From positions 3,187,014-3,251,013 of the forward strand of contig CAJINV010000004.1 in assembly GCA_905178155.1 (NCBI GenBank): a DNA stretch of 64,000 nucleotides, in the 5' to 3' direction. Source of the DNA: Amoebophrya sp. A120. Taxonomy: Eukaryota; Protista; Dinoflagellata. Below, one piece after another: positions 13,656 to 62,912 of this stretch (position 1 is the stretch's first letter; each line of letters opens with the position of its first letter). Under the pieces are notes generated by a model. The model was not told the DNA's origin and did no database searches. It saw nothing but the letters and a program-made list of their open reading frames with translations. A program made the position numbers and the translations under genes.

Positions 13656-13658
13656 CTG

Positions 13659-24512: not shown

Positions 24513-26915
24513 TCATCGTCCCGCTGCATGAATGCAGCTAGAAACAGCAGTATGAGCCGCAGGCTGCTTTTTTGAAGATTGACAATCGCGCAGCTTTTTC
24601 TGTAGGAAAGGGATCACAAAAATCGCATTACACAGTTCCATCAGCGTGGCAACTATGTAAGGGTCGACCACAAATTCCAAATTCAGTTTCCGCAAAAGCG
24701 CCCCGAGAGAACCACCTGAACCTGGGATCGTCCTCGACACGAGGACCTCACGACCATTGTCCCGCACAACTACCTTCGTCTTCAAGTCAAATACTTTCGC
24801 GAAGAACGACGGCATGAGAATGGACGGCAGGAGCATCAAGTTGCTTTGCGCCGTCGCGAGCGCGCCCTGTCCAAGCTTCATGCGTTCCGCCTCCTGCTGA
24901 AACGTGCGCTGCAACACATCCCCGCCGAAGTGCAACATGTACAGCAGATTGTTCACCCAGAGCACCCGGGTGGGGTTTTCTGCAAGGTAGACATTCAGAT
25001 ACGCGGCAATCTCCACCAGGGCGTGCGATTGCAGTAAGAAAACCGCGCCGCGGTTCAGAATGGAGTTCTTGCAGCTCTCATTTGCACGGTCGTCGGACGA
25101 AGAACCGGAAGCCGAGGTAATATTCGGCGCCTTGTCTTGATGTCCCGTGAACGTTCGCAACACCGGTATCAGAAGCAAGCTGTTGACGATCAACGCGACG
25201 CGCGCCAGCCGCTCGCTGATGCTGTCTGAGCCGCCGCCCCAGCGGTTGTCGCCGAATTTTTGACGGTAGTACATCGTACTGACTGACCCGACATACGTCG
25301 GCAACGTGCGGCAGACCATCAGGAGGCCGAGAAGCCGAAGTTTCCGGCTCTCCGCAAAACCCGGGAAGAAGGTTTGGAAGGGTTTGTGGAAATAACGGTT
25401 GGTGAGGCTTGTTTTGGATACGGCAGTTGATGCTGAGACTTGGTGTTGGTCGTTGTTATTTCTCCTGCTTCCCGTACCCGTGGTGTCTACATCGGTCGCC
25501 CGATTCTGGTCCACCTCGTGTTCGTGATGTTGCTCAGCATCTTCCCGTATTTCCGCCTGCTTCGTGCCTTCTCCCAGGCGGATTGAAAAGTTCTCAGCCG
25601 TTGCCGCGGTGAGCAAATTCTTGCTCGAAGTGCCCGCCACTTTTCCACTATAATTGCCGTGCTGTTTCTCGGTCGTCTTTTCGGTTGCTGGCTCACCCGA
25701 AGAACTACCCGTGATGGACCCGCCCTCCTCCGCACGACTTCTTGTCCGCAAAAACAGCACCGCGCTGGCAAGAACGGCGATCGCCCCGTGGCAGAAGTAG
25801 CTCAGCTCCGGCTTGTCTTTATACGGGAAGAATGTTTGCCCGGCAAAATTCCCCAACAACCCCGTTGCCAAGGCGACGCGAAACACGATCTGGTTTTGGT
25901 TCACCGCTTCCAACGAGCCGTGGCCGACGAGGTCGCCGAGCCACGCGGAGCACGCCCGGAACACGCTGGGAAACACGGTGGTGAGAATTAGTTGGTGTAA
26001 GACGAAAATCGGCTTCATGAAGTTCCGTGCCTTTGTAGTTCTCGTCGGTTGTTGTACTTCTATGCTTGTGGTCTCGAGCCCGTTCTGACCTTCTTGACCA
26101 CTGCAGGTGACCGCCAGCACCATTTTCGCGACCCCGAGAATGAAAAAGCCATTGACCATCGTCCGTACTCGGCTTTTGTCCAGGCGCCGGTTCAACATCG
26201 GGGTCACAAAAAAGTCCAGTAACGTACAGAGCTCGGATATCACAGGAAAAAAGTGTTACAGTTACACATTTGTTGGAGTTTCTGCATCTGCTCGACATGG
26301 CAAACAAGACCTGTGATGCGCAAACTATAAAGGGAAAACACGAAGGAAGTGAGGTTGGCAAGCATCTCCTGCATGACAGAGTTTATCTGTCTTGCTTGTC
26401 TCCCATCAGAGTGTGTAACTGTAACACTTTTTTCTCACGATATGGGAAATTTGGGAGGAGAAATTCGCTACATTGGTATGTTGGAGTTGCTGGGCCTGGG
26501 CATCAGGGGCGGGACGGGTTGAGGATGTTCTTGTCGTTGCAGCTGTCCCACCACTTGTTGTCGTGGACGACGCTCCTCCGTTCACGACCTTGTACAGCAA
26601 GTTCGTCCGGCTACTGGCCAGCAGTCCCATCCCGAAAGCGTTGATGCCACGGACCAGACAGATCAGCCGCAGCCGGTCTTGACGGGCCTGGAGGATTTGA
26701 TGTTGTTGCTCTCCTTTTTCATCAACATCTTCGCCTGTGTCTTCAGGGACCACCACATTCGGTGATGTCGTGGGAACTTTCTCTCGCCGGGCTTGCAGCT
26801 CCTCGAAAGGCCCTTCTTCACGCCCGCCCTGAGCTTGAGCAGGGTTTGATGTTGCAACATTACCTCCCAGTGAGTTCTTGAGGTTAGGGCGGCGTTCGTG
26901 GGCCCCTACTCGCAT
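24513..26915 (-). CDS. MFS-type multi-pass membrane transporter, 2 exons
   Basis: Two hydrophobic halves with a long central loop. Exons join across the introner 26238-26442 as FSSQIS(Q/E)LCTLLDFFVTPMLNRRLDKSRVR. Confidence 0.65.
26238..26442. mobile_element. Introner family E
   Basis: TIR TATCACAGGAAAAAAGTGTTACAGTTACAC / GTGTAACTGTAACACTTTTTTCTCACGATA; TSD TCGGA/TGGGA (1 mismatch). Confidence 0.85.
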
Positions 26916-28033
26916 TTTTGGAAACCGATCAGGATCCTCTTGAAGCGCGGAACAACGAACGCAGAAAAGTTCTACAGACTGGGCAGGAACGCAAAAACCA
27001 AACTTTTTCGCAGTAGATGGGCGAAACTAAAGCCTTAGTCATAAGGGACGACCTTCTGGATTAATGCTCCACAAGCGCTAGGAATAGGAAAACAAACAAA
27101 AAGAGAGAAAAAGATGAACAACAAAACTCAAGAAACGCAATCACGTCATCTAAAACAAGAAGAAGATTCCTTTGAACAAGGTGCGGATTCATATTTTGTG
27201 CATATCGTGCAGCTATATGCTTTTTCAATATCCTCGTCGCGTTCTTTCCGTCTAGAGCACGGCTCAAGGTTGTGATACAACACAGCCTGTTCCGTATTTC
27301 ATGATCTGCTCCGTAAAATTACCATTTTGTCAAGCCACGATGTCCAAAGCGAGAGAAACCAAAATACCTTTTACCTATGCTAGTTCATGTACGTTCTATT
27401 TCTACTTCTTGTACGGTGTGCAGCTCAGAGTCCTGTTTCATCATGACATCATGTCGTGTGGTGTGAATCGTTGAAAAACCAAATCGTACATTAATGCTGC
27501 CGATGCGTCTCCTAAAACATAAACAGACCATCCGACAAACCATGTGTTTGCTAATTGCATAATTACAGTTAGCGATTATTTGATGAAGTAAGCAAAAAAA
27601 GGGGGAAGAGGAGTTGTAAAAAAGCACCATCCCTTTAGAGGAGACAGTGACGGCGATGGTGTCAGTGGAAAATCAAATTCGGGGTCCGGTAGACTTAGAC
27701 ATGTTCAAATATATCTTTTCTAAAACGCTTGTCTTTTTATTTTGCAAACCGATACTAGAAGTACACTACGGTAGCGCCCATTTTCTTTATCAGACCGCCT
27801 TCCTCTGGTCGATAATGATCCTCTTTGTGCAACATCAAAGGCGTAGAAAGGGGATAAAATCGTTGTGACTTGTCTTGCTTCAACATCACCCCTCGTCGCG
27901 AGTGCTCAATGATTTCTACGGGAGAATTTTATGACATGTGCCTGCTTGCTCCTGGTAGAAGCATGCAGCTTTACAATCTTTTTATTTCTACCAACGAACA
28001 CAAGTCAAAGTCTTTTGCCGTAAGACAATGAAG

Positions 28034-31000
28034 TTACGGCTGCTGCATCTGGATTGTGCGGGCCTGTCCTCGTGGCGACGCTTCCTGACTGGACCCCTCC
28101 AAGTCCTTATTGGACTTCCGGTTCATCACATTTTCGCACGCGAACGGGATCTCCAGGGGCGTCGAGAAAAACTGCTCCAATATGACGTTCTCAAATGTTA
28201 CATTCTCAACTGTTACACGATTTCTCATGCAAAATGACAATCAGAATCGACATGATCAAGCTGCTTCGCATGGCAAATTCTCGAAGAGCCCAACAGGCTG
28301 AGAATCCGTGCCAAATCTGTCATGCAAGACGCGTTAGGTCCCCTCTTTTACTGTTGCCGTTCTTGCATGACAAATCCATGTAACAGTTGAGGATGTAACA
28401 GTTGAGAACGCCATATCCAACCGACCCACCTTGCGATCCTCGTCGAAAACCTGGATCATATAGCGATTTGTGTTTTAACTTTGAACAAGAAGATGCTGTT
28501 GGTATGTTCACAAAGAACAAGAAAGACCAGACAAAGAGAAGGAAGGAGCAGCGGAAATGAAAAGCTCAAGGGCACGCCAGGAGAGAAGTGAAGATAACGA
28601 AAGTTCTCTTTAAGTACCTGCTGCATCTCGGTAAGATCCAAGCAGTCGCAGGCGAGATAGGCGTTCACGAATTTTTCCACGTCCAGGGTGCGTTCGTCGC
28701 CCAGCGTGGCCAGCACCGCCTCGCTCAAAGCCTCGATGCCGCCGGAGCCGAGTGTAATCTTGCCCGAGCCGAACACCTTGCCAAAGCACTTGTTCAAAAC
28801 ATCAGAGTTCACAGAGGCGGCGTGGATGACCTGGATTTAGTTGCATTTTTATTTTTACGAAAAGGATAAGAGAATGAGAAAACCATGCAAAACAAAAAGA
28901 AAAAATGCAGAAATAGCATGACTACTTTTAGTGTGTCGGCTACATATGATATGCAGGACGAAGTTTATTGCCAGATAAAAACATCACAACTCCAGTACCC
29001 TGTTCCCCTTTTCGTCGGTCAGAAGCAGTTTCGGGTTTTCGTCCTCTACAATCTTACACAGGCCATGGAAGGCCGACACCGCCACCAGAATCCGCGCCGG
29101 GGCCACCCTTGTCGCTTCGTACTCGAGGTCCAGGGGCGTCAGCGTCGCGCGCTTGTACTGCAGGGACAGCCGGCCGAGAGCGGTCAGGGCGAACAGCACC
29201 ACGATGGCGCCCGCGGCACCGAAGTACACCTTGAACACGGCCATACCGGTCAGAAAATCGGTCCAGGAGAAGGCCCCGTAGGCGGAGGAGGTGGACGTGG
29301 TAAAGAGAAACCGAATCCCGTAGTAATAGCGCTCGCGGAACTTGCCCTTGTTGAAGTTGCTGTCGCTAAAGTACGAAGTCGTGGGGTTCTCGTACGCCAA
29401 GTGGGGGAGGCCGGTCCACATCGCCTGATGAAACGATGAGTCGGAGTAATTTCGTATGATATTTGTCGAACACAGAGAAGATGATTTGCATTTTTTGTTT
29501 CTCTCTTTATCATACAACACGACGAAACAAATTTTACCTGATTCACGCTGACTTTGATGAGCGCAACCATGTGATTGTCGAAGCCGGACAAGTCCACGTC
29601 ATCCAGTATGGTGAGAAAATACAAATAGGTTACTTGATGCCATCACTTGCTCGCCCTCAAGAAATTTGTGATGCCTGTGTGCGTCCTATGCGTTTCTTGA
29701 TCTGCAACACGAGTTTATTGCAATACGAATTTATTCGTATTCCTTGCAGAGGGGCCACAGGAGGGTGGCAAGAACCTATAAAAAAATGAATATAGCATCT
29801 CATATCCGGAATGCGGTTGTGAAAGGCCGGCCCGACGTACTCGATTGAAACCACGACTTCCACGCCCGTGAGCCGGTAGGGCGCCCGTGCGTCGTAGCCC
29901 GAGCCCGCCTGATTGCTGGCGATAGACGGGTTGCGCGCGTCCGCGTTTTGCAGGTCGATATCCCCGTTACTGGCGGCCGCCACCCAGTCTTGCAGCGTCA
30001 GGGTAGGGGGGTTCGGGACGCCCGCGGTCTCCGAAAACCGGCACTGCCCGGGCTTGCCGCCCACCTGTACGTAGGAGCAATCGTACTCGGAGTAGGCACC
30101 GTCCTGGTCTTTCCGCATGATAATGGACACCACCGGCAGTTTGTTCTCATCCTCGTCCGCAACCGCTTTTGGGGTTCCAGAGGAACCAGAAACCTCCGTG
30201 TCCGCGGCGGTAACCTAAAGGTTTTTATTTGGTGCTTTGCTCTGCCTGATGTGCTGTAGCTTTGATATGTTTTTGCAGCATTCGATGTTCACGTTGTTCC
30301 ATATTGATTTCTTGCGGAGCACTGTAATGAAAATGCAATGCTGGCCCTGGCGTCCATGCTTCTCATGCATCACAGACGCTTGCGCTTCTGCATGATCTCG
30401 TTTTTATTTGCCCACGTGCAATAGACATTCCAATTTCTGTACCTTGAAGATGTGCTCAAATGTCATTTTCCTAGACGATACACCCGCGACGAGGTAGTGC
30501 GACTGTTGGTTACACGCGCACTTTCGGACGTTCTGGTGAGCGTGCGACGGGGACTGCGAGCCAGCTGGGCCGTTCCACGCCGGGACATTGTTTTCCGTCG
30601 CGTCCTCGAAGCACTTCTGGCCGAAGTTGTATAGCGGCGCTTGCGAGAGACTGTTGTGGCTGCAGCTGACAGAGCTCGTGCAAAACGATGCGGAGCTGCA
30701 GGTGCTCCCAGATTCCGTCTCCACGATGGTTTCGCGGAAGTAGGTGGGGAAGTAGATCTCGCGCTTGCCGATCTTGAACCCGGCCTCCGCCTTGGGGGTC
30801 TGCAGGCACTGGTAGGCCCCGTGGGTCCAGCCCGCGGAGTACTTGTACAGGAAGGACTGGTTGTCGCGGCAGATGTCCGAGTTGTAGTCCGTGCTCACCG
30901 CCGAGGCATCCGCGTTCCCCGAGCCGCCCACCCAGGCGTTTGGAAAGCCCTGCGGAATCTGCACCACGTAGTACATCCGCTCCTTGATGAACTGCCACAG

Positions 31001-31114
31001 CAACAGCGATACGACCAACACCTGGATGCCGAGCTGGAACAAGGACAGCTTCCCATTGCGAATCGCAACCTCCTTCGGAATTTTAATCGGGTAGATCTTG
31101 CCCAGACGGACCAT
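28034..31114 (-). CDS. P2X-receptor-like two-TM ion channel with a C-terminal extension, 7 exons
   Basis: N-terminal IPKEVAIRNGKLSLFQLGIQVLVVSLLLWQFIKERMYY (TM1), Cys-rich ectodomain, and RYYYGIRFLF...YGAFSWTDFLTGMAV (pre-TM2/TM2) match the P2X layout. Four GT-AG introns and two introners. Confidence 0.7.
28181..28415. mobile_element. Introner family A (inverted relative to the other A copies)
   Basis: TIR TATGACGTTCTCAAATGTTACATTCTCAACTGTTAC / GTAACAGTTGAGGATGTAACAGTTGAGAACGCCATA; TSD TCCAA. Confidence 0.9.
29607..29804. mobile_element. Degenerate introner
   Basis: TATG...CATA ends, decayed inverted repeat, TSD TCCAG/TCCGG; removal gives the in-frame join HNRIPD|DVDLSG. Confidence 0.65.
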
Positions 31115-32306
31115 CCTTGCGACTATTTCTGGGTGGCAACGAAATGCGACGCTGCGACAACTATCGACGAACCAGACAGCCGGGAACGTCAGCTAAAAGA
31201 GAACCAGACTTTGATTTTTCTCCTATGTGAGTTTGCGATGGATGAATTGGCTCCCATTGGTTCAATATGACGATTTAGATTGTTTACCGATTACCAGTCA
31301 ACATTTCGGGAACGGGAAGACATCTTCAAATTCATGGCGGCGTTTTTTCTTCTCGTGTTTGCTTGCCCGGCGGGACATCGCCACTCACTAGAATTGGTTT
31401 TGTGTTTATTCTTCGGTGGACTTCTATAGCACCATGGAGCGCTGCTAGGCCCACACTTTTGCAAGAACATGAACAAACGGATTGATACATGATTGAAGGT
31501 CGGTCCTTGGTTGATGTTCCTTCATCACAGTGGTTCCGTTCATTGTTAGAGAGTTCTTGCGTGACGTTTTTCCTTAGAGTTTATTTCGTTCTTGTGTGGC
31601 TCTTTTATATTGACTTTGTTCTCGAAACAAAATGCTAACTTATGCGTAGGATGCATAGGTTTTTTATTTTTGATTCTAATCAAAAACATCAAAGAAGATT
31701 GAATTAAGGGAATATGATCGTAACATGCCTGCCTTCGGCTGAAATTCTTGCAGCGCCTCTGAAAGTCGAATCTCTGTTCTACCGGGACCGGGAGGTCCCA
31801 GTAGAACTGGACATCATGATCTTAGTGTGCGTGATAAAAAATTCTATGCTATAAAATACGCCGGCTTGTGCAGACATAAAACCGCATTTTATCATGAAAC
31901 AGGCTTGGTGCTCTAGTCGCAAAAAAAGAATGTCACATCTCCTGCGGTCCGAGCTTGTGGATAATTCCTAAACAGGTGAGGCACGTCGGTGCACAGACAC
32001 CCATTCTCGGCGCAAGCTCTTATTAAACCACTGAGAGAGCGGCCCGGTGACTAGCCGGATGTCAATCATGTTATGATCTTAATCGCGTACATACTTAAAA
32101 ACAACGAAACCAATAAATATGTTGCACCTGATTTTAGAAGTGTGGCAGCACGTACTACGGCTGCACGATTCACATCATGCTCATGTAGTGCATCATGTGA
32201 GCAAACAGGCGCAGGTGGGATCTACTACATGATCCATAAGATAATCTCCGTCTAGATGAATATCTATCACAACGTATTCTTGATGCGACAAGTCTCCTGT
32301 GCAGTC

Positions 32307-32804
32307 TCACATCTTCATCATCATTCGCCCGCCGGCCTTCTGTTGGACAGCAGCTGCTGCCAGTTGCGGTCCGTGTTGTCCCTCTTCCCGACCCGCCTGC
32401 TCCTTACCCAAGTAGTTCTTGTTTCGGCGCGCGGCAGCCTTCAGCTGGCCGGCCGCGACGCTCATCCCGATGATGTAGCAAACCGTCGCCGCGACGTGCC
32501 GGAAGAAAGTGGCCCAGTGCGGATCGTCGTCGTGCAACTCTTCGCCGCAACCGTTCGGAAACTTGACAAGCGGGGCGATGCAGAAAAAACCGGTCCCGCA
32601 ACCAGCGAAAGCCAAGCAAAACTGCTTGGACGCCGCGACGCGCTCCCGTGTGGTGTCATCCGTACATTGCAGCACCTGCGCCATCGCCCGGGGGAGCCAG
32701 TACTGCATGCCCACCGCCGCGAGCACATAGAGAAACGCGGCCGCCTGCATCAACGACACGTCCGTCTGGCAATCGACCGGGAGCCACTCATGCGTCGCTG
32801 GCAT
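32307..32804 (-). CDS. Membrane protein exon(s) with about 3 TM segments; either a separate gene or the tail of the kringle gene
   Basis: 165-aa ORF with hydrophobic segments and GC3-rich codons; a probable upstream exon at 32988-33160 ends at a GT donor. Confidence 0.5.
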   Translation of the reverse strand: MPATHEWLPVDCQTDVSLMQAAAFLYVLAAVGMQYWLPRAMAQVLQCTDDTTRERVAASKQFCLAFAGCGTGFFCIAPLVKFPNGCGEELHDDDPHWATFFRHVAATVCYIIGMSVAAGQLKAAARRNKNYLGKEQAGREEGQHGPQLAAAAVQQKAGGRMMMKM

Positions 32805-33165
32805 CAGGTTCAGAATCGAAATGAAGCCCGAAATTCCGAGAAAAATCTGATGATTTGAGATTCATTTTGATTTTGTGCGAGAGATCATTAAAGCCAGGTA
32901 CTTAGTATCCGCAGCATAATCAATCGTGAAAGAGAAAGGAATGAAAAATGGGTATGGAAATACTTTACAAAGTTAAAAATCTACTACCTGTGCGGTCCTG
33001 GCCTGTTTCTCTCCACCGGCTGTACTAGCAAGCACCGGACGAGCACCCGCTCCTGCGGGTCCACCTTGACCAGCAGTGATCCGGTCGGCTCCAGTAGTCG
33101 TACCAGTGGTCGCGGCGCTGCTGCTAGAATCCTCGGCAGAAGTACTTATCGTGCTCGTACTAAAA

Positions 33166-36100
33166 CTAACTGCAGTCGCGCAGGTACAAATCCAACCTTC
33201 TAGCTCTACCCAAACCAGCATAACAAATTGCAAGTTTCTTCTCTGGCAATAAAATTTGTGATGCAGTTCATACTAGCACGATACTTTTGCAATGCGTACC
33301 TAGGAAGATTCAGCAATTCGGTAATCATCTCGTCCGAGCAGTCGTCCACGCGGTCCAGGTACAGTTTGGTCGCGCAGGCGGCCATATCAAATGCAAAAAT
33401 GTCTCCTGGGTCTGGAAGGTTCTAAACTTGTAATGCTGTCTCTGGATTCTGAAAAAATTTATATTGCATGACCAGCAAGAGAGCTCCAGTTTGTGCTACG
33501 CGGAAAGGGAATTTCTCATGCGGCAGAGGCATCACAAAGTCCTCTAAAAATCTGTGATGCCAGGGCATACATCAAAGACGTCACGGGCCATTCAAAATAT
33601 GCATGACAAACCTGGTATTAATCTTCCAGACCCACACATTTGTGCATTTGATAGGCCATGGTCGCCAGCCCAACGCCGGAGAGGTAAAGATAGAACGCCG
33701 AGCCCCAGCTCTCCGTGTCGTAGTCGTGCGCTTTCGCGGCCGCATTGAAGCAGTTGGCGGACCAATGGACGAGGGCAACCACGTTCAGCAGTAAGAAGGC
33801 GAAGCTGAGCAGCAGAAAAGCCGGCCGGACAAGGTGCTGCTTCTCGACGACAACGGTGCGCAAAACCCACTGCTGGAATTCCGTCCGCGGGGCCTTCGAA
33901 GGGTTCAGGATGGGGAGGAGCAACAGAACTGTGGACAGCAGACCGAGCAACAGGAAGACAAGGCCGGCGGTCGCCAGTGAAGAGGCGGCCTTGCAATCCT
34001 TCGGAAAATCTTCGGAGTCGCCGGCAAGGTCAACAAGCTCGCTGTACGAGTACGCGACCTCTAGCTCGTTGTTAATCCAAACGGAAGTGCCGTACAGGTT
34101 AAAGTCTGAGGGGTATGGGACCCTCAAACTACGCTACTATACATTCTTGTCGTTACATGGGTTTGTGCTGCAAAACTAGCAAAAGTGAAAGGGGGGCGGC
34201 GCCTGTTGCGCTTTTTGAATTACAGGCTTCTTTGGCGCAGATTCTGATTCTATTTGGCGCGTCGAGAACTTCTTGTACTTGTCACGCGAAGCAGCAGCTT
34301 CATCATGCTACTAGATATTGATGGCAATTTTCATTTTGCATGCCAAATCATGCCACAGTTGAGAATGTAACGTTAACGTTTGAGAATCCCATAGGGAGAT
34401 CTTCAACCTTGTTCCGCCAGCCGCACTACTGCTCGTCGTGGTGATGCTCGTTCCCGAACTGCTGCTCGTTCCCGAACTGCTACTCTGGACTGACGATGTT
34501 GTTGTTGACAGGGGACTGCAGTAGCCCCATCCACCTGCAACCTCCGAGCACCATATCCCTCCGCTATCACCATCCGGATTCCGGCAGTAATTGTGGTCAG
34601 CACTGTAAACGTGATCCCACATAGAACCGCGCCAGGTGGCGCAAGGACTGCCAGTTCTGGTCCGCGTCTGACACCCCCGGTAGTCGCGTCCGATGCCGGT
34701 CATGCTCTCGTCGCAGTTTCCGTTCAGTAAGCGGGTCGTGGTCCTTAAAGTCCTCCTCGTGCGGATGTGGTCAGTCAGCGTCCCCAGCGCCAGCCCGCTT
34801 TCCACGTTCCCCCCGACCAGCACGATGAAGCAGATATTCCGTGAAAATTAACCAGTTGTCATGCAAAACATGTAGTAAAATCTGTGTTTGTCATGCAAAA
34901 AGTGAATGGGGATGGCTAATTTTCAGGGAATAGCAGAGCAAAAAGGCGACCGATGCCCACACACCGCCCAGCACGCTGATGTACTTCAAGTTACCGACGA
35001 GTGCAACCTATGCATAAAAATTCTTGCACAAGTATCGTCTTCGTCCAGAATAGGGAGTTGATTGTGAAATACAAAAAATTTTGGGAGAACGATTCTCATG
35101 GTGCTTTTATTACGATCAAATATAGATTTCTTTTTATTCTGCACCTAATACTACGACGCACGAAAATTTACCTGCTGCTCTTGGGTCATTGCGTCGTGAA
35201 TGGTCGACTGCTTGCTGGGCGAGGCCGGATCCTCCACTGCGACGGCGTTTTCGCCACCACCAGCGGTAGCTTCTTGTTGTGCGATCACGATCATGGTCGC
35301 CATCCCGGCAGCTCCTTGTTCCATCGGCACACTCAGCTATAGGAGGGCACAATTCGTCCTCTTCCTCCTGATCTACAAGGCATGAGCAGGAATAGACATG
35401 TCAGCAAGGGAAAAAGCTGCGCAACTGTTGCATGACAAATTCAGATTCACCTACGGTTGTAGTCGTGTTCCTTGGGCTGCAGGAGCACGTCATGCGAAAA
35501 GTACCAAGAGGGAAACAACGCAAAGACAAAGCGTGGATGTGGGTTTGGCTTTTTTCATGAGAAGAAGAAATGTGGTAGAGCAGGGGGAGTTCAAGTTGTG
35601 CACTCTCATATTAGACCTGCGGTGTTGACCAGCATGCTCGGTTGTTCGATGACCTTCGCCACGCCAGCGTCTTTGCCGGTAACAGTGGTAGCAGCCACAC
35701 CTTGAATGCCGTCCGCCGTTAGCAGTACCGGTGGTTGCACAGAACCAGCAGGGTCGGCGGCAGAGGGATCAGTTTCTTCCTTGTGGTGCTTCTCGCGGTT
35801 TTTTTGCTCGTGCTTTTTCTTCTTGTACCCCTTGCGATTCCATCCAAAATCGGCTTGCACCTGCAGTGGAAGCTTGCATGTTAAACTTAATAAAACAAGG
35901 AACGACACGATGCTGCAATCATCATCACTCGCCACATCACTACCATGATCTCATACTACATTACAACTTTACAATCTCAACAAGCCCCTCCTTGTTTGTT
36001 CACACCAGGAGCCAAAAAAGCCGACTCCTACCTTCGCCCCCGAGCAGTTCCGGTAGCAGTACCTAATCGAGCCGAAACACGCCAAGCCGGCCAAGACGCA

Positions 36101-36479
36101 GAATAGCGCAATCCCAAATGCGCCGCTGTTATGGCGTTCTCAACTGTTACATTCTCAACTGTTACACGAATTTGTAATGCAAGTAGAATAGCAAAAGTCA
36201 AAGGGGGGCGGCTGCACATCTAGCATTACAAATTTCGCACAGATTTAGGCGCTCTTTAGCCCTTCGCAAATTTGTCATGCGAAGCAGCTTGATCGTGTGG
36301 GTGATGATAGTGCTTTTGCATGACAAATTCATGTAACAGTTGAAAATGTAACGTTTGAGAACCCCATAGCTGTCCTCCTCGCAGTCGGAACCGCCATGCT
36401 CGCAGGCTAATGCGATCCGGGCGGTGGCGGTGAGGAGGAGGAGAACGAGAGGGAGAATGGTCACGGAGGGTGCCATCAT
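33166..36479 (-). CDS. Multi-exon membrane protein: signal peptide, TM segments, extracellular kringle domain, claudin-like TM block
   Basis: Start MMAPSVTILPLVLLLLTATA; kringle YRGCQTRTRTGSPCATW...HNYCRNPDGDSGGIWC...WGYC. Removing five introners and three GT-AG introns gives one frame; the 3' end is uncertain. Confidence 0.7.
33385..33653. mobile_element. Introner family D
   Basis: TIR TATCAAATGCAAAAATGTCT..GGGTCTGGAAG / CTTCCAGACCCACACATTTGTGCATTTGATA; TSD GGCCA. Confidence 0.9.
34114..34393. mobile_element. Introner family A, diverged
   Basis: TATGGGACCCTCAAAC / GTTTGAGAATCCCATA; interior homologous to 36130; decayed TSD AGGGG/GGGAG; removing element + 5 nt restores the frame. Confidence 0.8.
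34835..34932. mobile_element. Mini-introner family F (98 bp)
   Basis: TIR TATTCCGTGAAAATTAACCA / TGGCTAATTTTCAGGGAATA; TSD GCAGA; join FLLC|FIVLVG. Confidence 0.88.
35338..35610. mobile_element. Introner family C, diverged
   Basis: TATAGGAGGGCACAATT / AGTTGTGCACTCTCATA; TSD TCAGC/TTAGA; join TAGLS|VPMEQ in frame. Confidence 0.7.
36130..36368. mobile_element. Introner family A
   Basis: TATGGCGTTCTCAACTGTTACATTCTCAACTGTTAC / GTAACGTTTGAGAACCCCATA; TSD GCTGT. Confidence 0.9.
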
Positions 36480-37450
36480 GAAGCCTGATGACTTCGAGGA
36501 GAAGCAGGGCCACGAGAGTTGGAAGGAGGACGGCATCTTGTTCAACACTTGTGCCGGCCGGGTTGCTTACTGTCGTACCGGAAGGCAAACACGAAGACGT
36601 ACAAGATGAAAACTCACTGCCGCGGTCAGGTTTTGTTGACGGCAGCGGCACAGACGCTCGCTACTGCCGCGTGCTATCTAAAAACAATGAAGAATGTGAG
36701 TGGGAGTGCTACACCACGTTCGTTTTGGTATCGCTCTACTACTCGTACTCCTGACGCTGGATACAACTGCACCAGTAGATGCTTGTTGCCTCATCCTGGT
36801 TGTAGTTGCTCTCATGAATGTGTGCCCTGTACAAGGTATTTTTTCGTGCTCGCCTAGTTTTGTGCACTCAGTCCACTTTGGGGTTGCAGTCTTTTGACGT
36901 TGACTACTCAATTTGCGCAAACAAGAAGTTGTGGAGGTTTATTGTCGTGCGGGATGCACACTGATGTAGTCTCTTAACAACGTTCATGTTGCGCACAACC
37001 CCAACTACATCTAAGCGAGCGTTGCTATTTTACTGAGCTCAATATCACGGTCAACGAGGCGGTCGACAGTTTGAATGTTTTTGTTTGGCGAGCGCCCTCC
37101 GCGTATATATTCTGTTTACCAGACTAGTATCTTTTCAGTGGACATATATGATCCCAACTTTCGCGCTGCGCAAGTCCAAGCTGCTTTTTTCCATTCCGAA
37201 TTCAACATTTTAAAAATTTCAATCTTACACCATATCACTTCGAATGTTTTCAAGACAATAGAGCGGTTAACGAGGGCTCTTGTGGTTGACGTAGTACTCT
37301 TACCGCTCTACTAGTACTGCACCGGCGTAGTCTGCGCAGAGAACGTTAAACGCATCCCACGCGCATCGAACTTGGTCTTTGGTCTCCAGTGTACCTCGAT
37401 TCCCCGCTGTCTCAATGCAAGAACGACTGGCAAATCCTGTAAGTCCGCAG

Positions 37451-46384: not shown

Positions 46385-46468
46385 GAATATGAAATTGTTG
46401 ATTTAAATTTGCTGATTGTGGCACCTAGCACTGAACTTCATCTTCACCTTCAACTACTTGCAAGATAG

Positions 46469-48686: not shown

Positions 48687-49753
48687 CTAATCTCCGTTTC
48701 GGCGTACGTTGTGGAACATTTTCCGATTGTTGCCGTACCCCGAGTACAGGTTGCCGGGGCTGCCTGCCGGTGGAAGGCTCCAGGGATCTGAGTATCCTGT
48801 GCAAAAGTATTGCACTCGTAGTAATCGCATTCATGCATTACAAATCTGGTTCCCAAGGCAAATTAGCATGACAAATTCCATTTGTCACGCTGAGCGAATT
48901 TGTATTGCAATCACTACTAGTACGATACTTTTGCAGTTCATACCGACTTGCCCTTCACCACGTTGTCCTCCCGAATCACCTCGAGGGCGAACCTGATTTG
49001 TGAAAATTATTGACAGACTTTTCTAGACAGCAATTTTTGTGGTGTCATGAGTCATTTCATAATTCTTGTTCAGCAGCACAAGAGTTAGAAGAACTTCTAC
49101 ACGCCGTTGGGCGGTGCTTTTAACGTTTTGTTGAACAAGGAGAGACTTTACACACAGGCACACATGATTATAGATTTCAACGTGCACCCATTGTGCAACA
49201 GTCGAACTTCTACACATCACGCAAACAATCTTTCTACCCTCTCTTCCGATCCTGCTCCAGGCGTTTCAGGTCGAGCTTGCGGATGAGTCCATCCGGCCAC
49301 TGCGAATACTTCGAGGACGGCGACACTTTGACCGACGGGTGGGAGAAAGAGACTTATGAAATGTAAAAGTGTCTGGGTCTGGAAGAGTCATGCTGTTTCT
49401 GCATGACACAGAAGGTCTGGCATGGCAGCTCTAGCATCACAGGTTTCGAGAAGCTTCCGCAATGCTGAATCCGCATGACAAATCCCTCATTTTGGCGACA
49501 GAAAGTGAGCAGCTTTTGCGTGCTATGCATCAGAGATTTTTGTGTGTTCTGCAATGCGCATCACAAGTTACATCCTTCCAGACCCAGACATTTTTGCACT
49601 TGATAAGACTTGCCGATGGAAGATTTTCTGCTTCTGCGCCTTCTTCGCGGCGGGACCCAGGGTGTGCGGGACTTCGATCGAATCCTTCTTCTCTGCGACA
49701 TGCAAGCACTTGTGCAAGCTGCGCATCTCCGCTGCGTGACTATCCGCGGCCAT
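48687..49753 (-). CDS. Small 4-exon hypothetical protein (~136 aa) invisible in the ORF track
   Basis: MAADSHAAEM...FHRQVS|FSHPSVK...QDRKRG|FALEVIRED...GKSD|PWSLPPAG...RRNGD* after removing two introners and one GT-AG intron. Confidence 0.6.
48793..48942. mobile_element. Introner family B
   Basis: TATCCTGTGCAAAAGTATTGCACT / AGTACGATACTTTTGCAGTTCATA; decayed TSD CTGAG/CCGAC. Confidence 0.8.
49355..49605. mobile_element. Introner family D
   Basis: TATGAAATGTAAAAGTGTCTGGGTCTGGAAG / CTTCCAGACCCAGACATTTTTGCACTTGATA; TSD AGACT. Confidence 0.9.
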
Positions 49754-49872
49754 GGTGTATCTATAGTGCTCTTGTTGTTCTCGTTCTCGTCCCTTTGATG
49801 TGCTGATTGTTTTTCTTCTTTCTTGTCTCCTTACAAAGTACTTCCTTTTTTCTCCAACTTCAACGGCTCTGT

Positions 49873-54869: not shown

Positions 54870-57800
54870 TTCTTCGCAATTGGCGCAACATTCCTTCATA
54901 CGGACTGCAGTTCGGATCTTCACTGTAGTAATCTATCCAGCACGAGAATTTTTCCAATTTCTCATGCATACCACGCACGGGCCCGAAGCTCACCAGCGTG
55001 TCCCAAAGCTCTTGCAAAGATTTGGGCCAGGAACTTTTCGCCGCTTGTCCTCTCGCTTCTCCTTCGAAAACCTACGAGTGTTCTGCACGAGTCGAAATGA
55101 TTGATAGACGCGCTCGCAGAATGGATCCAGCGAAAAAACATAAACAAAACGTAGAAATTGAAATACACTGCAAACCCAAATAAGCATGTAACATAAGCAA
55201 GTAGCCACTTCAGTTCGACAAGATGACTACGCAGCGGGCTCTGCAAAGGGAAATCGAAATCCTTGAAAGTGCTATCAGTTCTTCTTACCTGCTCCTGACC
55301 ACCCCCGGATGAACTACCCTTGACGTCCAACTGCTGCAAAAATTCCGGCACGAGGCGCACGTGCCGCGACGGAAAGTGCACTGCAAATTCCTTCCACGGT
55401 AAAAAGTCCGCGAACGGAAACCGCAAGGCGTCCGACAACACCACCGGAATACACCCACTAAAGAAAGATTCAAAAACCCGTCCGTTCGTGTAGCCGACGC
55501 CCTTCGGCACGAGGCAGAACTTGCAGTTCCCCATGGTTTCGTAGTACTTCACGACGGGCGTCAGGTGCCCGCCCAGGCTCGTTTTGTAGGAAAAACTGTT
55601 TTCCCCAAACTTGTCCTGCTCCAGCGCCCACTGCTGAATCTGGGCACGGATCTTGCTCGCGGGGAGCATATGGCGTTCTCAACTGTTACATTCTCAGCTG
55701 TTACATGGATTTGTGATGCAAGAGCAGCAATATGGAAAGGGGCAGGCTTGCGAGTCTCGCATCACAAATCTGCAACAGATTTAGAAAGATGCTGTTTAGC
55801 TCTCTGATGATTTGTCATGCGAAGCACCTTAATCTTCTGGCGACTTATTGGGATTTTGCATGACAAATCATGTAACAGCTGAGAATGTAACAGTTGCGAG
55901 CGCCATAGAGCACGTTTGACGTTTCGAAGTCAAACGGCGGCTTCGTCACCGTTTCCTCGTACAGGGAATGTTGCAACGCGCCCCGGAAGCAGAAGAGAAA
56001 CTCTCTTTCCGCATACGGCTTCCGATACAGCCGAAACTTCCGCATCGCGAAGAAATCGATGTGCTGGGGCAGGACCACGTCTTTCCGCTCGTCGAAGCAG
56101 TCCAGACAGTGCTGCGTGGCGTTTATCCACAGAAAAAACCCATCAACGTCCACTTTTTGCATGACAAACACAGGACTTGATACATGTTTTGCACGACAAA
56201 TTGGATGTGGATGGGTGTTTTCTCCTGGATAGCGTTGGTGTCGATCATGTCCAGCGGGTTGGATTCGACGACGAGCAAGATCGCTTTGTCCACCCGCAAC
56301 TCCGGATGCGCGACGAGCTCCCTAGCCCCCCAGAATTCGTGCGCGAAGAGGAAGATGTGGTCTTTTTTGCGGAAGCTGTCGAAGTACTGCAACGTGGGGA
56401 ACAGCTCTCGGTACGCTTCCCGCATCACCTCCGTACTGTCCTGCAACGGTGGGTCAAACGCCTCGCGCTGGTACCCATTGTGGTAGAAGGGGACGAAAAA
56501 GAAGTCGGCGAGATCGGGGTCGGTGGTACGGCAGAAGGACTGCTCGAGCCACCGGTGCAGCAGAACCTCGATGCCTTCCTGTCCGAAGGACGTCGAGAGC
56601 CGGAGGTTCGTGTATTTTTGGACGGTCGGGTTGTCGTACACATAGACGGTTTTTTTCATCTTGCTGATTCTATTTCCATCTTCGGAAGTTGTAGTACTTC
56701 TAGAACCCTGATTTGTTGCGCCGGCACATGAATTCGCTGTGGTCTTATTTCGATTTTTCATTTTCCCCCACGACTGCAGCTGTTCTCCTGATTGGCCTTC
56801 TTCTGTGCCGTCCTCCCGCAAGCGTTCTCCATACACCAAGGGCACCAGCGGCTGCACCCACTGCAACACATTCAGGTTCCCCTCCGCCAGTGCGACGAGG
56901 ATACGATAGGCGTTCAGGGTTTCGGTCGCACCGAGCTGCTTCTCGACCAGTGGCAGCGAGTTCACCTATCCTGTGCAAAAGTATCGCACAGTACTCGTAT
57001 TGCAATCAATCTTTTTCTTAAGGTAAATTCGCATTACAAATTTTATTTCTCATGTGTGTAAATGCATTTATACGAATACGATACTTTTGCAGTTCATATC
57101 ACCAAAATCGTCGCAATCAGGAACTGGTACCAGGATTTTGAAAACTTCGGAAAATCAGCGGCAGTAGAGGAGGTCGATATTCCAGGAGCAGGCTTGATAC
57201 CGCCGCCTTCGTGGTCTGCTAGTTCTTGTGCCCGCGCGACGTGCTGGTCAGAGCTAGAAGAAACAGTAGCTGCGGAAGAGTCTGTGGCTGCGCCTCCACT
57301 CCCAACATGACCACTGAAGTAGTCCGGTGGTGCGGATAAAATGCACAGTCCGTCCTGAACCAATCGGGAGTAGAGTTCGAAGCAAAACTTTCGGTGGTCG
57401 GTCGGTAGGACCGTGGAATCCAGAAAACCCGCGTAGTATTCCACGTGCTCCCATTCCTCTGGATGCAATACCTTTTCGTACAGGCAGGCGAGAGCAAACT
57501 CATTTCCGCACAGAAAAAAGTAAAAACATGCTAGTACCGCGGTGCGAAAAAAAAGAGCGCAGAGGGCCCCCGCGTTGCAGGGGTCGTGACTGGACCTGGA
57601 ATGGTACGTGACGGAACGTCTTCTGTTCTTGAGTTTACCCCACGCGGACGGAGGCAAAAAATGTGGGAAGAAAGACCGCAGACGAAATCTTCGCTTTCGT
57701 CCTCGTGTTCTTGTTTTGCGGCGCCATCTGCAGCTTCCGGACCATCTGGCTCCTGGACGATGTTCTTTAGGTCCACCATGTATGTTAATGTTGATCGTCC
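54870..57800 (-). CDS. Exostosin-like GT47 glycosyltransferase, multi-exon
   Basis: KTVYVYD, RTTDPDLADFFFVPFY, KDHIFLFAH, CFDERKDVVLP, LFCFRGA, YYETMGNCKFCLVPKG...RVFESFFSGCIPVVLSDALRFPF. Gene ends are approximate. Confidence 0.85.
55669..55907. mobile_element. Introner family A
   Basis: TATGGCGTTCTCAACTGTTACATTCTCAGCTGTTACATG / CATGTAACAGCTGAGAATGTAACAGTTGCGAGCGCCATA; TSD GAGCA. Confidence 0.9.
56124..56231. mobile_element. Mini-introner family F (108 bp, nearly a complete hairpin)
   Basis: TATCCACAGAAAAAACCCATC / GATGGGTGTTTTCTCCTGGATA; TSD GCGTT; join DTNA|TQHCLDCF. Confidence 0.9.
56967..57098. mobile_element. Introner family B
   Basis: TATCCTGTGCAAAAGTATCG / CGATACTTTTGCAGTTCATA; TSD TCACC. 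Confidence 0.9.
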
Positions 57801-58971: not shown

Positions 58972-61900
58972 TCAGACACTGTTAAAGTTGTCTTGTGACG
59001 CGTTTCCTTTACTGGTGACACGCCTGCTGGATTTCTGCCACGTGCCGTCGTTGGCGGTTTCCAGGTTGCCGCTCACCTGCGTTTTCAGGCGCGCGAAGCT
59101 CTGGCGCATCTTCGAGCCCCGCAGGTGGTTGTGCGCCGTGGCGGTCGGGTTGGCCGTTGATGATGCTGATGTGCCAGAGAAATCAAGAGGACCAGAAAAA
59201 GCTCCTGCTGGTGCCGCATCCCCTGAAGAGGACATCACCGCGACGTCTTTGATTACAACGGTTTTATTGTTACTTCGGGTCTTTTTGGGGTACTGAATGA
59301 ACGCCGGCTGGTCCTCGTTGTGAAACATGCTTTTTCGCGGTTTATTTGTTCCAAAAATCATATTACCCCCCGACGCCGATTGGATGGAGGTCACCGACGA
59401 ACCTGCCCCAGGTGGAACAGCTGGTGCACCTCCAAACTGCACGACTGGGGACAGGTGCACAAAGGTGGAGCCCCGTCCAGAAGTGCTGGGGCTTCGATTG
59501 ACGTTGATTGCACTGGTGCTCCCAACTAGTACACCTGCGCCACCTTGATGCGGATCCCCCTGGTGATGTTGTTCTACCGCTTTCACCCGCGCGTGCTCCA
59601 TCTCGACCTGCTTCCGTGCGAGCATCATCATGGTCCGCAACTTCCGGGCCTTTTCCGTGACCGCGAGGCTATGGGAGTGCGCGGTGTCCAGGTCGGGCAG
59701 GCACTTGGCCTTCTCCAGCGACTTCGCCTCCTCGTAGTTCGCCCGGGAGATCTTCACGATGCAGACTTCGTGCGAAGAAATCCACGCGGAATACGCCGGA
59801 GTGATCCTCTGGTACCCCTCCGCGCCGGTGTCCCCCCGCGGGACCAGCGCCTCGATGTTCAGGACCGCGTTCGAGCCCAGGTCCTGCTGGAACTGCGACA
59901 AAGGCAACGCCGAGCCGTGCGAAAACACGTGGTGGTGCGCGATGCGCACGACCCCGGTGAGCACGATAATCATGTCGTCGCAGGGTTTGCCGGCCTGCAG
60001 CAAAAAGTCCTCCTGTTCCGGCAACGCCGAGTGGCTGTTCTTCTTCACGCGCACCTCGACCTGCGCGCCCGTCGCCAGCAGCCAGCGCAGCGCCTTGCCG
60101 CCGATCCACCCCTCCCCGACCTGCCGCATGTGCCCGGTCTGAAACCGCCACGGCAGGCGGCTTTTTAGCATGCTGGTCCAGGACGCGCGAGAAGAACTAT
60201 GGATGTGTCAGGTTTGAAATCGTCAGAGTTGAATAAATAGTTTGTCATGCATAAAATGGATGCCAGTTGGAGCCCAGTTTTCAATTGGCGCATGACAAAT
60301 TTTGGCGATGCCTAAATCCAGTTTGTGATGCTGTTTGGGTAAGGAAGACGCCTTTTGTCATGCTACTTTAGCAGCTCTATTTCTATCCCTCAACAGGCTT
60401 GCAATCTGCCTCCCTTGCCTACTCTGCAAGACAGGCACTTTGTGGGTTGCATTTTATGCATCACAAATTATTTCAACTTTGACGATTTCAATCCTGACGC
60501 TTCCATAAGAACCTGCTGCGTCGTGGTCGGACAGCAGTTCTTCCCGGCCAACTGAACCTTCCATCCGAGTCTTATGAACTGCAAAAGTATCGCACTCGTA
60601 TAAATGCATTACAAATTTCCTCAGCGTGAAAAATAAAATTTGTAATGCTGATTTACCTTAGGGAAAAGATTTTTTGTGATGCATGATTACAATACGAGTA
60701 CGACACAACTTTTGCACAGGATAAGTCTTACTCACGGCCAGTTCGTGGAACAGTTCCGGCCCGGGGTAGTTCTCCCGCAGGTGCGCACACAAGACCGCAA
60801 TCTCGAAGGGCGTCAACGGACTCTCGGCCAGCGCCTTGTTGAAGACGCGCATGCTCATGGGGTCCACGTTGTAGAAGTGTTGGCCACCGCGGAGCTTCGA
60901 GGCCGGCTCGTGGACCATCTTCGTGAGTTCCAGCAGCTGCTCACGCTCTTCCAGTAGTTCATCCCCTTGCGACGCTTGACTCTTCATCGCAATGCCGCTG
61001 CCGCTAGCACTGCTGACCGTGGAATTATGGTGTCGCCCGGTCATTTCCGACATTGTCTGCAGCTCGATCTGTGAGGCGTTCTTTCGTTTATTGTTGGCAG
61101 ATTTGGTATTCCTCTTGGATCCCGAGTTAATTATATCGTCTGCTGATGTGCTGTTGTTTTCCTTGTTATCTACGCTTGTTCCAGCAGCAGCTCCAGTAGT
61201 CGCAGCAGCACCAACGGTTGTTCCCCCTTCCTCGTCGCTGCTCGAGGTTTCCATGCTGAGCGCGCCGTGCAGCAGCGTTTTCGCGACGTCCTCCTTGGCT
61301 TCGAGCACCTCTAGGGGCAAAGCCGCAGACTCGTCGTCGAACTCCTGGCCGAGAATCTCCTCGAAGATGTCCTCTTTGGAGAAGACGCCGATATGGCGTT
61401 CTCAAATGTTACATTCTCAACTTGTCATGCAAGAATGGGAAAAGTGAAAGGGGGGAGGTTGCACCTGTAGCATTACAAGTTCCGGACCGATTTAAGTGGT
61501 GTCTAGCCCTTCGCAAATTTGTCATGCGAAGCAGCTTGAACTTGATCGTGTGAATGATGATAGTGTTTTTGCATGACAAATTCATGTAACAGTTGAGAAG
61601 GTAACCGATTTGAGAACCCCATAGCCGAGTAACTTTCGCGTGTCCTCCTCCACGACCAGCGCGAGGTGCGCAATGGTGTATGACAGTGCACAACTGCCCC
61701 TCCCCTTCATTTGTCATGCAAAATACCCAGCCCATCCTTTGTCCCTTGGCACTGAATGCATGACAAGTTCTGGTAGCCCAAATAGCAGTGCAATCCAGTA
61801 GACATTATTTGTCATGCAAAACCGGCACTGTTGCTGATGCTTGTATTGCCGTTCATGCTATACAAATGAGGGAAAGGGGGAGTTGTGCAATGTCATATGG

Positions 61901-62912
61901 TGCCCTTTTTGAACACATTGATGGCGAACCCGCAACTGTGCTGCGGGTAGAAAGTCACGTACGTCCGGGCAAACATCTGGAGGAAATCCTTCACGGGCAT
62001 GGCGTCATCCGGGTCCACAAGCATCAAATCTCGTGTGAGGAGAATCGCGACAATGCTGTGTTCGTCCTCCAGGGAGTAGATGGGCACCCGGGAAAAGCCA
62101 GACTTCCAGATCAAAGCCACGGTGTCGTAATCTAGAATGGTGTTAAACGGCAGCTTGAACACGTCTGGAAACGGCGTCATCACGTCGGTTACCTTTTTGT
62201 CCTTAAAGGAAAGCGCGCCTTGCAACACCTGTTCCTCCAGACTGGACAAGTGCGCCGCCTGCGCCTGCACCTTGAGCAAGTACATGAGTTCCTTGCGGCT
62301 GTAGCTGGTGCCCAGCTCCTCGCCCAGCACGTAGTCCAGCGCCTTCGCGATCGGAAAGGCCAGGGGGAACAGCAAAAACCCGAAGACGTACACGACCCAG
62401 ATTGTGTGCGCGCCGACGAGGAGCGCGTAGCGGGAGCAGGCAGACTGGGGCACGATCTCGCCGAAGATGACGATAACCCCCGAACTGACGATGAAGCCCA
62501 TGACCCCGCCGGCCATGTCGCCCATAAAGATCGCGAGCGCGGCATTTACCATCACGTTCCCGAGGAGAAGCGTGCAGAGCAGCAAATTCCCGTGTTTCCG
62601 CACCGGGTAGATGCGTCGCGCGTACTTCTTCTGCTCCTCGTCGTCGCCGTTGATGACGATCTCCAAGCCCGCGAGGTCGAGGCCGAGCAACCCCAGAGTT
62701 AGCCCGGAGAACAGCCCGGATAGACAGATGAGGATCACCACCATGACGTAGTCGAGGAAGCTGCTGCCCTCCGAGGCTTTGAACCCGCAGTAGCCTTCCA
62801 CATTCGCGCCGCAGCTGCAGTCCGCATCCGCCGTGCACACCAGTTGGCCCCGCAACGACGTGTAATTGGCGAAGATCGCCGTGTAGTCCGTCAATGGACT
62901 GCTGTCCGCCAT
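58972..62912 (-). CDS. CNNM: CNNM/DUF21 metal (Mg2+) transporter with a CBS pair and cNMP-homology domain; 5 exons, all 4 introns are introners
   Basis: LSGLFSGLTLGLLGLD, LLCTLLLGNVMVN, IFGEIVPQSAC, DVMTP, SGFSRVPIY. Joins give FKKGTIAHLALV and LLGVFSKEDIFEEILG; the C-terminus has MIIVLTGVV. Confidence 0.92.
60198..60507. mobile_element. Introner family G
   Basis: TATGGATGTGTCAGGTTTGAAATCGTCA / TGACGATTTCAATCCTGACGCTTCCATA; TSD AGAAC. Confidence 0.9.
60573..60723. mobile_element. Introner family B (inverted relative to 48793 and 56967)
   Basis: TATGAACTGCAAAAGTATCG / ACTTTTGCACAGGATA; TSD AGTCT. Confidence 0.9.
61392..61623. mobile_element. Introner family A
   Basis: TATGGCGTTCTCAAATGTTAC / GTAACCGATTTGAGAACCCCATA; TSD GCCGA. 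Confidence 0.9.
61679..61897. mobile_element. Introner family C (inverted relative to 7317)
   Basis: TATGACAGTGCACAACT / AGTTGTGCAATGTCATA; TSD TGGTG. Confidence 0.9.

What the first reader, a model, noticed from the sequence alone, without database searches (positions are those of the whole stretch)
26233..61902. Two frame-preserving splice registers are built into the 5-bp TSD + TAT/ATA design
Arithmetic from the sequence: seamless removal leaves 5 nt of target. Cutting one base outside each end gives an intron of form NT...AN, which mimics the T of GT and the A of AG. That leaves 8 nt, i.e. exactly one extra codon and no frameshift, so a relaxed spliceosome could tolerate the insertion. 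The CNNM joins (LLGVFSKED; KKGTIAHLA) fit family consensus better with seamless removal. The mismatched TSDs (26238, 29607, 34114, 35338, 48793) allow the true cut position to be read directly.
Basis: inference. Interest (0 to 1): 0.7.

Follow-up and report, generated by a model that had tools for sequence, protein, structure and literature searches.

The report
Transposon introns cut at fixed offset
In a marine parasite, small transposons inside genes are removed from the RNA without adding a codon, likely by cuts at a fixed distance from the transposon ends rather than at the usual GT and AG letters.

Summary
The window is Amoebophrya sp. A120. The TAT...ATA inserts with 5-bp target duplications (TSDs) are its published introner elements. 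In spliced RNA contigs (one run), 9 of 9 element-derived introns between 25 and 37 kb are removed at element+5 nt (seamless) and none at element+2 (NT...AN). Site 26238 reads ISQL. The public CNNM protein matches only the all-seamless model (1 of 16). Rare NT...AN products cannot be excluded, because contigs drop rare forms. An aged copy that is now a GT-AG intron has GT and AG at exactly those positions. So the 5' 'NT' guess is likely right and the 3' 'AN' guess is wrong. Across 67 elements the letters at these positions show no GT or AG enrichment. The papers I could read call this border unknown or variable. Verdict: known elements, rejected second register, a probably unpublished fixed-offset rule resting on five sites.

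The parts
26234..26443 (-). Introner intron (element 26238-26442, mismatched TSD); coordinates under the inferred N-TAT...ATA-NNNN cut
   Evidence: RNA contig skips 210 = 205+5; exon keeps 4 or 5 nt of the upstream TSD; protein ISQL
28177..28416 (-). Introner intron (element 28181-28415, perfect TSD)
   Evidence: RNA skip 240 = 235+5
29603..29805 (-). Introner intron (element 29607-29804, mismatched TSD, weak inverted repeat)
   Evidence: RNA skip 203 = 198+5; exon keeps at least 2 nt
33124..33299 (-). Canonical GT-AG intron that is an aged copy of the 48793/56967/60573 family (element 33128-33298; TSD remnant CTAGG/CTAGC)
   Evidence: RNA skip 176 = 171+5; top new end match 16/19; end-to-end alignment puts GT at -1/+1 and AG at +3/+4; exon keeps at most 4 nt
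33381..33654 (-). Introner intron (element 33385-33653, perfect TSD)
   Evidence: RNA skip 274 = 269+5
34110..34394 (-). Introner intron (element 34114-34393, mismatched TSD)
   Evidence: RNA skip 285 = 280+5; exon keeps 2-4 nt
34831..34933 (-). Introner intron (element 34835-34932, perfect TSD)
   Evidence: RNA skip 103 = 98+5
35334..35611 (-). Introner intron (element 35338-35610, mismatched TSD)
   Evidence: RNA skip 278 = 273+5; exon keeps 4 or 5 nt
36126..36369 (-). Introner intron (element 36130-36368, perfect TSD)
   Evidence: RNA skip 244 = 239+5
48789..48943 (-). Predicted introner intron (element 48793-48942, mismatched TSD); junction not read in RNA
   Evidence: all seamless cuts with 1-5 nt kept give the same protein (GKSDP)
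49351..49606 (-). Predicted introner intron (element 49355-49605)
55665..55908 (-). Predicted introner intron (element 55669-55907) in an exostosin GT47 gene
56120..56232 (-). Predicted introner intron (element 56124-56231) in the same gene
56963..57099 (-). Predicted introner intron (element 56967-57098) in the same gene
60194..60508 (-). Introner intron 4 of the CNNM gene (element 60198-60507)
   Evidence: Public protein P0121 seamless here
60569..60724 (-). Introner intron 3 of the CNNM gene (element 60573-60723), inserted in the opposite orientation to 48793 and 56967
61388..61624 (-). Introner intron 2 of the CNNM gene (element 61392-61623); join LLGVFSKED
   Evidence: P0121 and the A25 orthologue P0122
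61675..61898 (-). Introner intron 1 of the CNNM gene (element 61679-61897); join KKGTIAHLA
   Evidence: P0121
58972..62912 (-). CNNM metal-transporter gene, 1002 aa, interrupted by four elements
   Evidence: PF01595, PF00571
7313..7535 (-). Predicted introner intron outside the finding (element 7317-7534)
   Evidence: not read in RNA
7630..7886 (-). Predicted introner intron outside the finding (element 7634-7885)
   Evidence: not read in RNA
8301..8622 (-). Predicted introner intron outside the finding (element 8305-8621)
   Evidence: not read in RNA

Best explanation
These MITE-like TAT...ATA elements of Amoebophrya A120 are removed from the mRNA together with exactly five bases of the duplicated target, so the protein is unchanged, and the cuts likely fall at one fixed offset (one base before TAT, four bases after ATA), likely made by a relaxed spliceosome that does not need GT or AG. 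Shown: seamless removal, and removal in either element orientation. Inferred from five sites: the fixed offset. Inferred: the 5' site is read as N-TA, a partial match to the GTA of this genome's canonical introns; the 3' site is set by distance from the inverted-repeat stem, which is predicted to leave a 1-nt 5' and a 4-nt 3' overhang; old copies can drift to GT-AG without moving the cut. Because 1 + 4 = 5, any 5-bp-TSD insertion in either orientation would be spliced out cleanly whatever its target letters.
For: Seamless: 9 of 9 element-derived joints skip element+5 in run X1, which also skips 7 unrelated CT..AC introns and so is spliced RNA. P0121 is identical to 1 of 16 register combinations, the all-seamless one; that annotation was built from transcript alignments. 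Fixed offset: keeping 4 nt of the upstream TSD fits 5 of 5 informative sites; every other offset fits 1-3 of 5; likelihood ratio 32 against independent uniform cuts. The aged copy 33124-33299 has G on the base before TAT and AG at +3/+4 after ATA. All nine most frequent A120 non-canonical motifs in Table S4 of PMC7789003 begin NT, while their 3' letters vary. Canonical introns here start GTA in 8 of 8. Changes in the outer two letters of the end triplet fall at the mRNA-3' end in 5 of 5 cases (33128, L048 and L014 with fair strand support; two in L030 with uncertain strand), so the last A of ATA is dispensable. Orientation: 28181 lies opposite to 34114 and 36130, and all three are spliced. No letter requirement: GT start 14 of 67 (P=0.14), AG end 5 of 67 (P=0.62); 21 and 5 of 63 in the wider set. 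The terminal stem is predicted in register in 7 of 9 folds.
Against: The RNA evidence is one run and one contig per joint. Contigs drop rare variants, and the three raw-read runs laid 0, 1 and 1 reads, so they gave no test. P0121 may rest on the same RNA material as X1, so the two may not be independent. The fixed offset rests on five sites; the chance that some common offset exists under random cuts is 0.167, and a cut that varies within the TSD is not excluded. [quoted passage not shown] At 29607 and 33128 the predicted fold is out of register, yet both are spliced seamlessly. Mismatched TSDs in the 53 outside loci show no drift towards GT or AG (15 mismatches spread over all five positions). 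Nothing here shows that the spliceosome is the agent.
Confidence: 0.72

Rival explanations
1. Removal is seamless, but the cut floats within the 5-bp duplication from site to site or molecule to molecule; agreement on four bases is a coincidence of few sites.
For: A common offset arises by chance in 0.167 of random draws. PMC7789003 calls the positions variable. The 2025 catalogue lists mixed dinucleotides within each family, though annotation sliding inside the TSD would also produce that.
Against: The observed pattern is 32 times likelier under the fixed offset. The aged GT-AG copy sits in the same register. Published top motifs all start NT. A cut floating between molecules would give two junction sequences at mismatched sites; one was seen at each, though contigs hide minor forms.
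Confidence: 0.15
2. The fixed-offset cut is made by a protein endonuclease and ligase that recognise the hairpin (as in tRNA splicing, or as discussed for euglenid non-conventional introns), not by the spliceosome.
For: The terminal letters are free. A stable stem brings the ends together. U1 snRNA was not detected (PMC7789003). Euglenid hairpin introns with an offset stem are described in PMC11282704.
Against: The 5' end matches the canonical GTA at +2 and +3, and an aged copy became GT-AG in the same register. The published spliceosome is nearly complete, with 6 of 89 proteins undetected. Two introns with poor predicted stems are still spliced.
Confidence: 0.1
3. One reading: a second register, NT...AN, is used and adds one codon.
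For: It keeps the frame and makes no stop at 21 of 21 sites. Other introners that add residues are published (PMC9860276). Rare forms are invisible in contigs.
Against: 0 of 9 RNA joints; 0 of 4 CNNM junctions. The terminal A is changed in some copies (33128, L048, L030).
Confidence: 0.03

Closest known systems
Introner elements (IEs) of Amoebophrya sp. A120 (Farhat et al. 2021, PMC7789003; read: abstract, sections 11, 12, 16, 25, passages of section 10 with figure legends, supplement legends and Table S4 rows; figures not seen)
   Same: Same organism. Inverted repeats starting TAT, direct repeats of 3-5 nt (5 bp in the Fig. S19 legend), non-canonical introns of about 240 nt, many families, RNA-supported splicing.
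   Different: The paper says the border position 'remains unknown' and is variable relative to the hairpin. Here five sites give one offset.
A120 introner families in Gozashti et al. 2025 (PMC12130899; read: passages, and 21 of 58 A120 rows of one supplementary table; files 13 and 14 not searched; Fig. S8 image not seen)
   Same: Mostly classed as TIR DNA elements of unknown superfamily that create introns.
   Different: Automated calls give TSDs of 2-5 bp and mixed mechanisms (co-opt both, carry 5', carry 3'); no single offset is stated in the rows seen.
Introners of Micromonas, Aureococcus, Symbiodinium and Polarella (PMC9860276, PMC11282704, bioRxiv 10.1101/2020.10.14.339549; passages only)
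   Same: TIR and TSD elements whose splice sites are carried or taken from the TSD. Polarella class 12 has a 5-nt TSD and can use the TSD's last G plus the element's first base as the 5' site.
   Different: Those need G-starting and AG-ending sites, so only some targets work. Here the letters at both predicted sites are at background.
Non-conventional introns of euglenids and non-GT/AG introns of Fritillaria (PMC11282704 and PMC13326754; passages only)
   Same: TIR hairpin, TSD-like repeats, non-canonical ends; an offset stem in euglenids (+4..6 paired with -8..-6).
   Different: The stem here is predicted at +2..4 with -5..-7. Fritillaria introns keep preferred ends (AG-AC, AG-AT).

Membership tests
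Amoebophrya A120 introner elements (Farhat 2021) | Located in the Amoebophrya A120 genome | tested here: met
   Window exon 100% identical over 336 aa to a protein labelled Amoebophrya sp. A120
Amoebophrya A120 introner elements (Farhat 2021) | Terminal inverted repeats of 8-20 nt starting with TAT | tested here: met
   weak at 29607
Amoebophrya A120 introner elements (Farhat 2021) | Run of at least three A about seven bases after TAT | tested here: inconclusive
   Seen by eye in several families (33385, 48793, 26238) but not in others (7317, 8305); not counted
Amoebophrya A120 introner elements (Farhat 2021) | Direct repeat of 3-5 nt at the exon/intron borders | tested here: met
   5-bp: identity 0.92 against 0.19-0.30 for other lengths (partly circular); 46 of 53 unselected outside loci at 4/5 or better
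Amoebophrya A120 introner elements (Farhat 2021) | Removed as introns, mostly without GT-AG | tested here: met
   9 of 9 in RNA contigs, 8 of them non-canonical
Amoebophrya A120 introner elements (Farhat 2021) | Repeated in families | tested here: met
   Interior similarity among window copies; 53 outside loci
MITE / non-autonomous TIR DNA transposon | Short, TIRs, constant TSD, both orientations | tested here: met
   98-317 bp; opposite orientations
MITE / non-autonomous TIR DNA transposon | Cognate autonomous transposase | not tested
U2 spliceosomal intron | GT-AG ends | tested here: not met
   GT 14 of 67 and AG 5 of 67 at the inferred sites; met only by the aged copy 33124-33299
U2 spliceosomal intron | Lariat formation and snRNP dependence | not testable with these tools
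   Needs lariat reads or knock-down
Proposed NT...AN (+1 codon) register | mRNA skips element+2 nt | tested here: not met
   0 of 9 RNA joints, 0 of 4 CNNM junctions; rare forms untested

The most novel reading that the evidence does not exclude
Amoebophrya A120 defines both splice sites of tens of thousands of introns by position, one base before and four bases after a transposon-end hairpin, with no required terminal letters except the element's own TA at +2/+3. That would be a ruler-type, U1-less splicing mode matched exactly to a 5-bp target duplication, making every insertion a ready-made, scar-free intron in either orientation.
Probability: 0.5. Interest if true: 0.75.

Novelty: already known. 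Interest (0 to 1): 0.42.

Why it matters
The elements are published, and the proposed second register is not in use, so the finding as written is not new biology. What matters is the by-product. The paper that described these introns left their borders unknown and the mechanism open. If the cut is fixed at -1/+4, all annotated A120 element introns can be re-registered, and the apparent variety of splice dinucleotides reduces to NT at the 5' end and free letters at the 3' end. The question of how a spliceosome with no detected U1 finds its sites then becomes directly testable. It would also explain why these elements spread so freely in coding DNA: no target letters are needed and no residue is added.

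Tried and rejected
No whole genome is held for this window, so no genome-wide count was possible. No listed holder was on record as RNA; X1 was judged to be RNA from its canonical joints. Raw RNA runs X8-X10 laid 0, 1 and 1 reads: no test. No RNA reading and no DNA-run control were obtained for the elements at 48793 and beyond. Empty alleles in DNA are therefore not formally excluded, although canonical and element joints sit on the same contigs. The protein search for the 48793 gene found no candidate; the protein could not fix the offset there anyway. My first intron guess in that gene was misplaced and was corrected. Profile scores barely separate the CNNM registers (523.6 seamless; 523.2 and 521.9 with one NT...AN junction), so they were not relied on. 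An early idea that intronic TSD copies drift to G at the last intron base (true at 26238 and 35338) was not borne out: last-base G 24 of 67, P=0.23; no trend in 15 outside mismatches. A GT-AG reading at 48793 (element+6) shifts the frame and is untested. Rows dropped: one search dropped 5 unpaired loci and 1 duplicate of 53 and kept one further duplicate pair (L030/L038); one search used 63 of 70 elements with a strand margin of 3 or more. Strand calls were right for 19 of 20 window elements, with a codon model trained on this window. The 'same/opposite' column was not used as orientation evidence, because the two ends of that family are alike. Rfam found nothing in the window. Earlier findings of the scan: none. 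Roy et al. 2023 (Curr Biol) is not held; its preprint has no mention of Amoebophrya.
Full report
What the window is. GC-rich coding stretches on the minus strand are interrupted by 98-317 bp inserts that begin TAT, end ATA, carry terminal inverted repeats and are flanked by a 5-bp duplication. Fifteen have a perfect duplication and a clear inverted repeat; 100 resampled windows gave a mean of 0.05. An exon of the CNNM gene is 100% identical to a public protein labelled Amoebophrya sp. A120. The inserts match the introner elements described for that strain in PMC7789003: repeats starting TAT, direct repeats of 3-5 nt.

Seamless removal skips element+5 nt; the NT...AN register would skip element+2 and add a codon. 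I noted both predictions before laying reads. Both keep the frame, and neither makes a stop in the coding frame at the 21 sites, so only RNA or protein can decide.

RNA. On 25000-37000 the three raw-read runs laid 0, 1 and 1 reads and gave no test. The contigs of run X1 skip eight CT..AC introns, so they are spliced RNA of this organism. All eight catalogued elements in the stretch are skipped at element+5: 210, 240, 203, 274, 285, 103, 278 and 244 nt for elements of 205, 235, 198, 269, 280, 98, 273 and 239 nt. Seven come from the joint table and 26238 from the table of contig pieces; one row of the joint table was not shown. One of the eight CT..AC introns is a ninth, aged element, also at +5 (176 for 171). 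None is at +2. At 26238 the protein reads ISQL. Limits: one run, one contig per joint, and contigs drop rare forms. The elements at 48793 and beyond were not read in RNA.

Protein. Of 16 register combinations for the four CNNM elements, only the all-seamless one is identical to P0121. That annotation was built from transcript alignments and may share material with X1. The A25 orthologue aligns without a gap at the LL|GVFS join. Homologues keep G-x4-ED in 192 of 194 cases and have G before that G once in 192. At the KKGT|IAHL join the family spacing is 2 in 147 of 148; seamless gives 3 and NT...AN gives 4, so the seamless join is closer but not a consensus fit.

Where the cut lies. With k the number of upstream-TSD bases kept in the exon (mRNA sense), the RNA allows 4-5 at 26238, 2-5 at 29607, 2-4 at 34114, 4-5 at 35338 and 0-4 at 33128. 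Only k=4 fits all five; the other values fit one to three. The pattern is 32 times likelier under a fixed k=4 than under independent uniform cuts, although some common k would arise by chance in 0.167 of draws. The intron is then N-TAT...ATA-NNNN.

Three further lines agree. First, the GT-AG intron 33124-33299 was the best new element-end match in the window when TAT was left out of the score (16 of 19). It aligns end to end with the 48793/56967/60573 family, with its G on the base before TAT and its AG at +3/+4 after ATA. It is the same site as one of the five above, so only its GT-AG position is extra evidence. Second, the nine most frequent A120 non-canonical motifs in Table S4 of PMC7789003 all start NT. 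Third, canonical introns here start GTA in 8 of 8, which the element matches at +2 and +3. The five changes seen in the outer two letters of the end triplet are all at the mRNA-3' end (three with fair strand support, two uncertain), while the two changes seen at a 5' end are TAT to TAC (33298; L031, strand likely). The last line is weak.

What the letters do not need. A scan of metagenome contigs gave 53 loci of one family, all from one assembly. With the window's 20, the predicted first dinucleotide is GT in 14 of 67 and the last is AG in 5 of 67, both at background; the wider set gives 21 and 5 of 63. Elements of one family are spliced in both orientations. Folding predicts the terminal stem in register in 7 of 9 RNA-confirmed introns, and out of register at 29607 and 33128, so the stem is not the whole story.

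Mechanism. Shown: seamless removal, in either orientation. Likely (about 0.8): one fixed offset. Inferred (about 0.7 overall): a relaxed spliceosome reads N-TA as the 5' site and places the 3' site four bases past the stem. Since 1+4 equals the duplication length, every insertion is a scar-free intron. The rivals are a cut that floats inside the duplication and a non-spliceosomal hairpin endonuclease.

Against the literature. The elements are known. PMC7789003 states that splice sites are variable relative to the hairpin, that the border is unknown, and that U1 snRNA was not detected. The 21 of 58 A120 rows I saw in a supplementary table of PMC12130899 give TSDs of 2-5 bp and mixed mechanisms. 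Six full-text searches and passages of PMC9860276, PMC11282704, PMC12005148, PMC12787238, PMC13326754 and bioRxiv 10.1101/2020.10.14.339549 showed no statement of a fixed -1/+4 offset. Unseen material may bear on this: the figures of PMC7789003 (Fig. 3 logos, S19-S25), Fig. S8, the remaining rows and two files of PMC12130899, bioRxiv supplements, and subscription papers including the final Roy et al. 2023.

Verdict. These are known elements, the second register is rejected for the dominant transcript, and a testable, probably unpublished rule for the true cut rests on five sites. Interest 0.42.

Noticed in passing
window 33124-33299: A canonical GT-AG intron is an aged introner copy, which suggests that part of the canonical intron set of this genome descends from these elements.
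   Followed up: yes
window 34986-35170 (RNA joint 35005-35170) and 30215-30442: Two more canonical introns hold degenerate pieces that look like element ends or internal motifs; at 35008 the apparent old end lies further from the AG than four bases. Seen by eye only.
   Followed up: no
all window elements: Different families share internal 10-mers of the GCATGACAAA / GCATCACAAA / GCATTACAAA type in both orientations: 38 of 39 exact hits lie inside elements, which cover about 4.5 of 64 kb. Possible transposase or splicing-factor binding sites.
   Followed up: partly
window 39566-41540: Tandem array of a 68-bp unit, 23.5 copies, 93% matches, flanked on both sides by similar AT-rich 41-bp doublets; not explained.
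   Followed up: no
window 13243-16756: Cluster of GC-rich tandem repeats (periods 20, 114, 158, 55) next to a 527-base assembly gap at 16047-16573.
   Followed up: no
canonical introns in window 28451-36031: All eight RNA-confirmed canonical introns start GTA (GTAC 4, GTAA 2, GTAG 2), and most have A-rich 3' ends without a clear polypyrimidine tract.
   Followed up: partly
window 48793: This element has G before TAT and CAG ending five bases after ATA, so a GT-AG reading exists one base off the seamless register; it would shift the frame. A good site to look for mis-splicing.
   Followed up: partly
L001-L053: Exact matches to an A120 element end occur at 53 loci of a single metagenome assembly, many with further elements of other families within 600 bases, so that assembly holds A120 or a very close relative.
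   Followed up: partly
window genes: All element-bearing genes examined lie on the minus strand, in line with the published unidirectional gene clusters.
   Followed up: no
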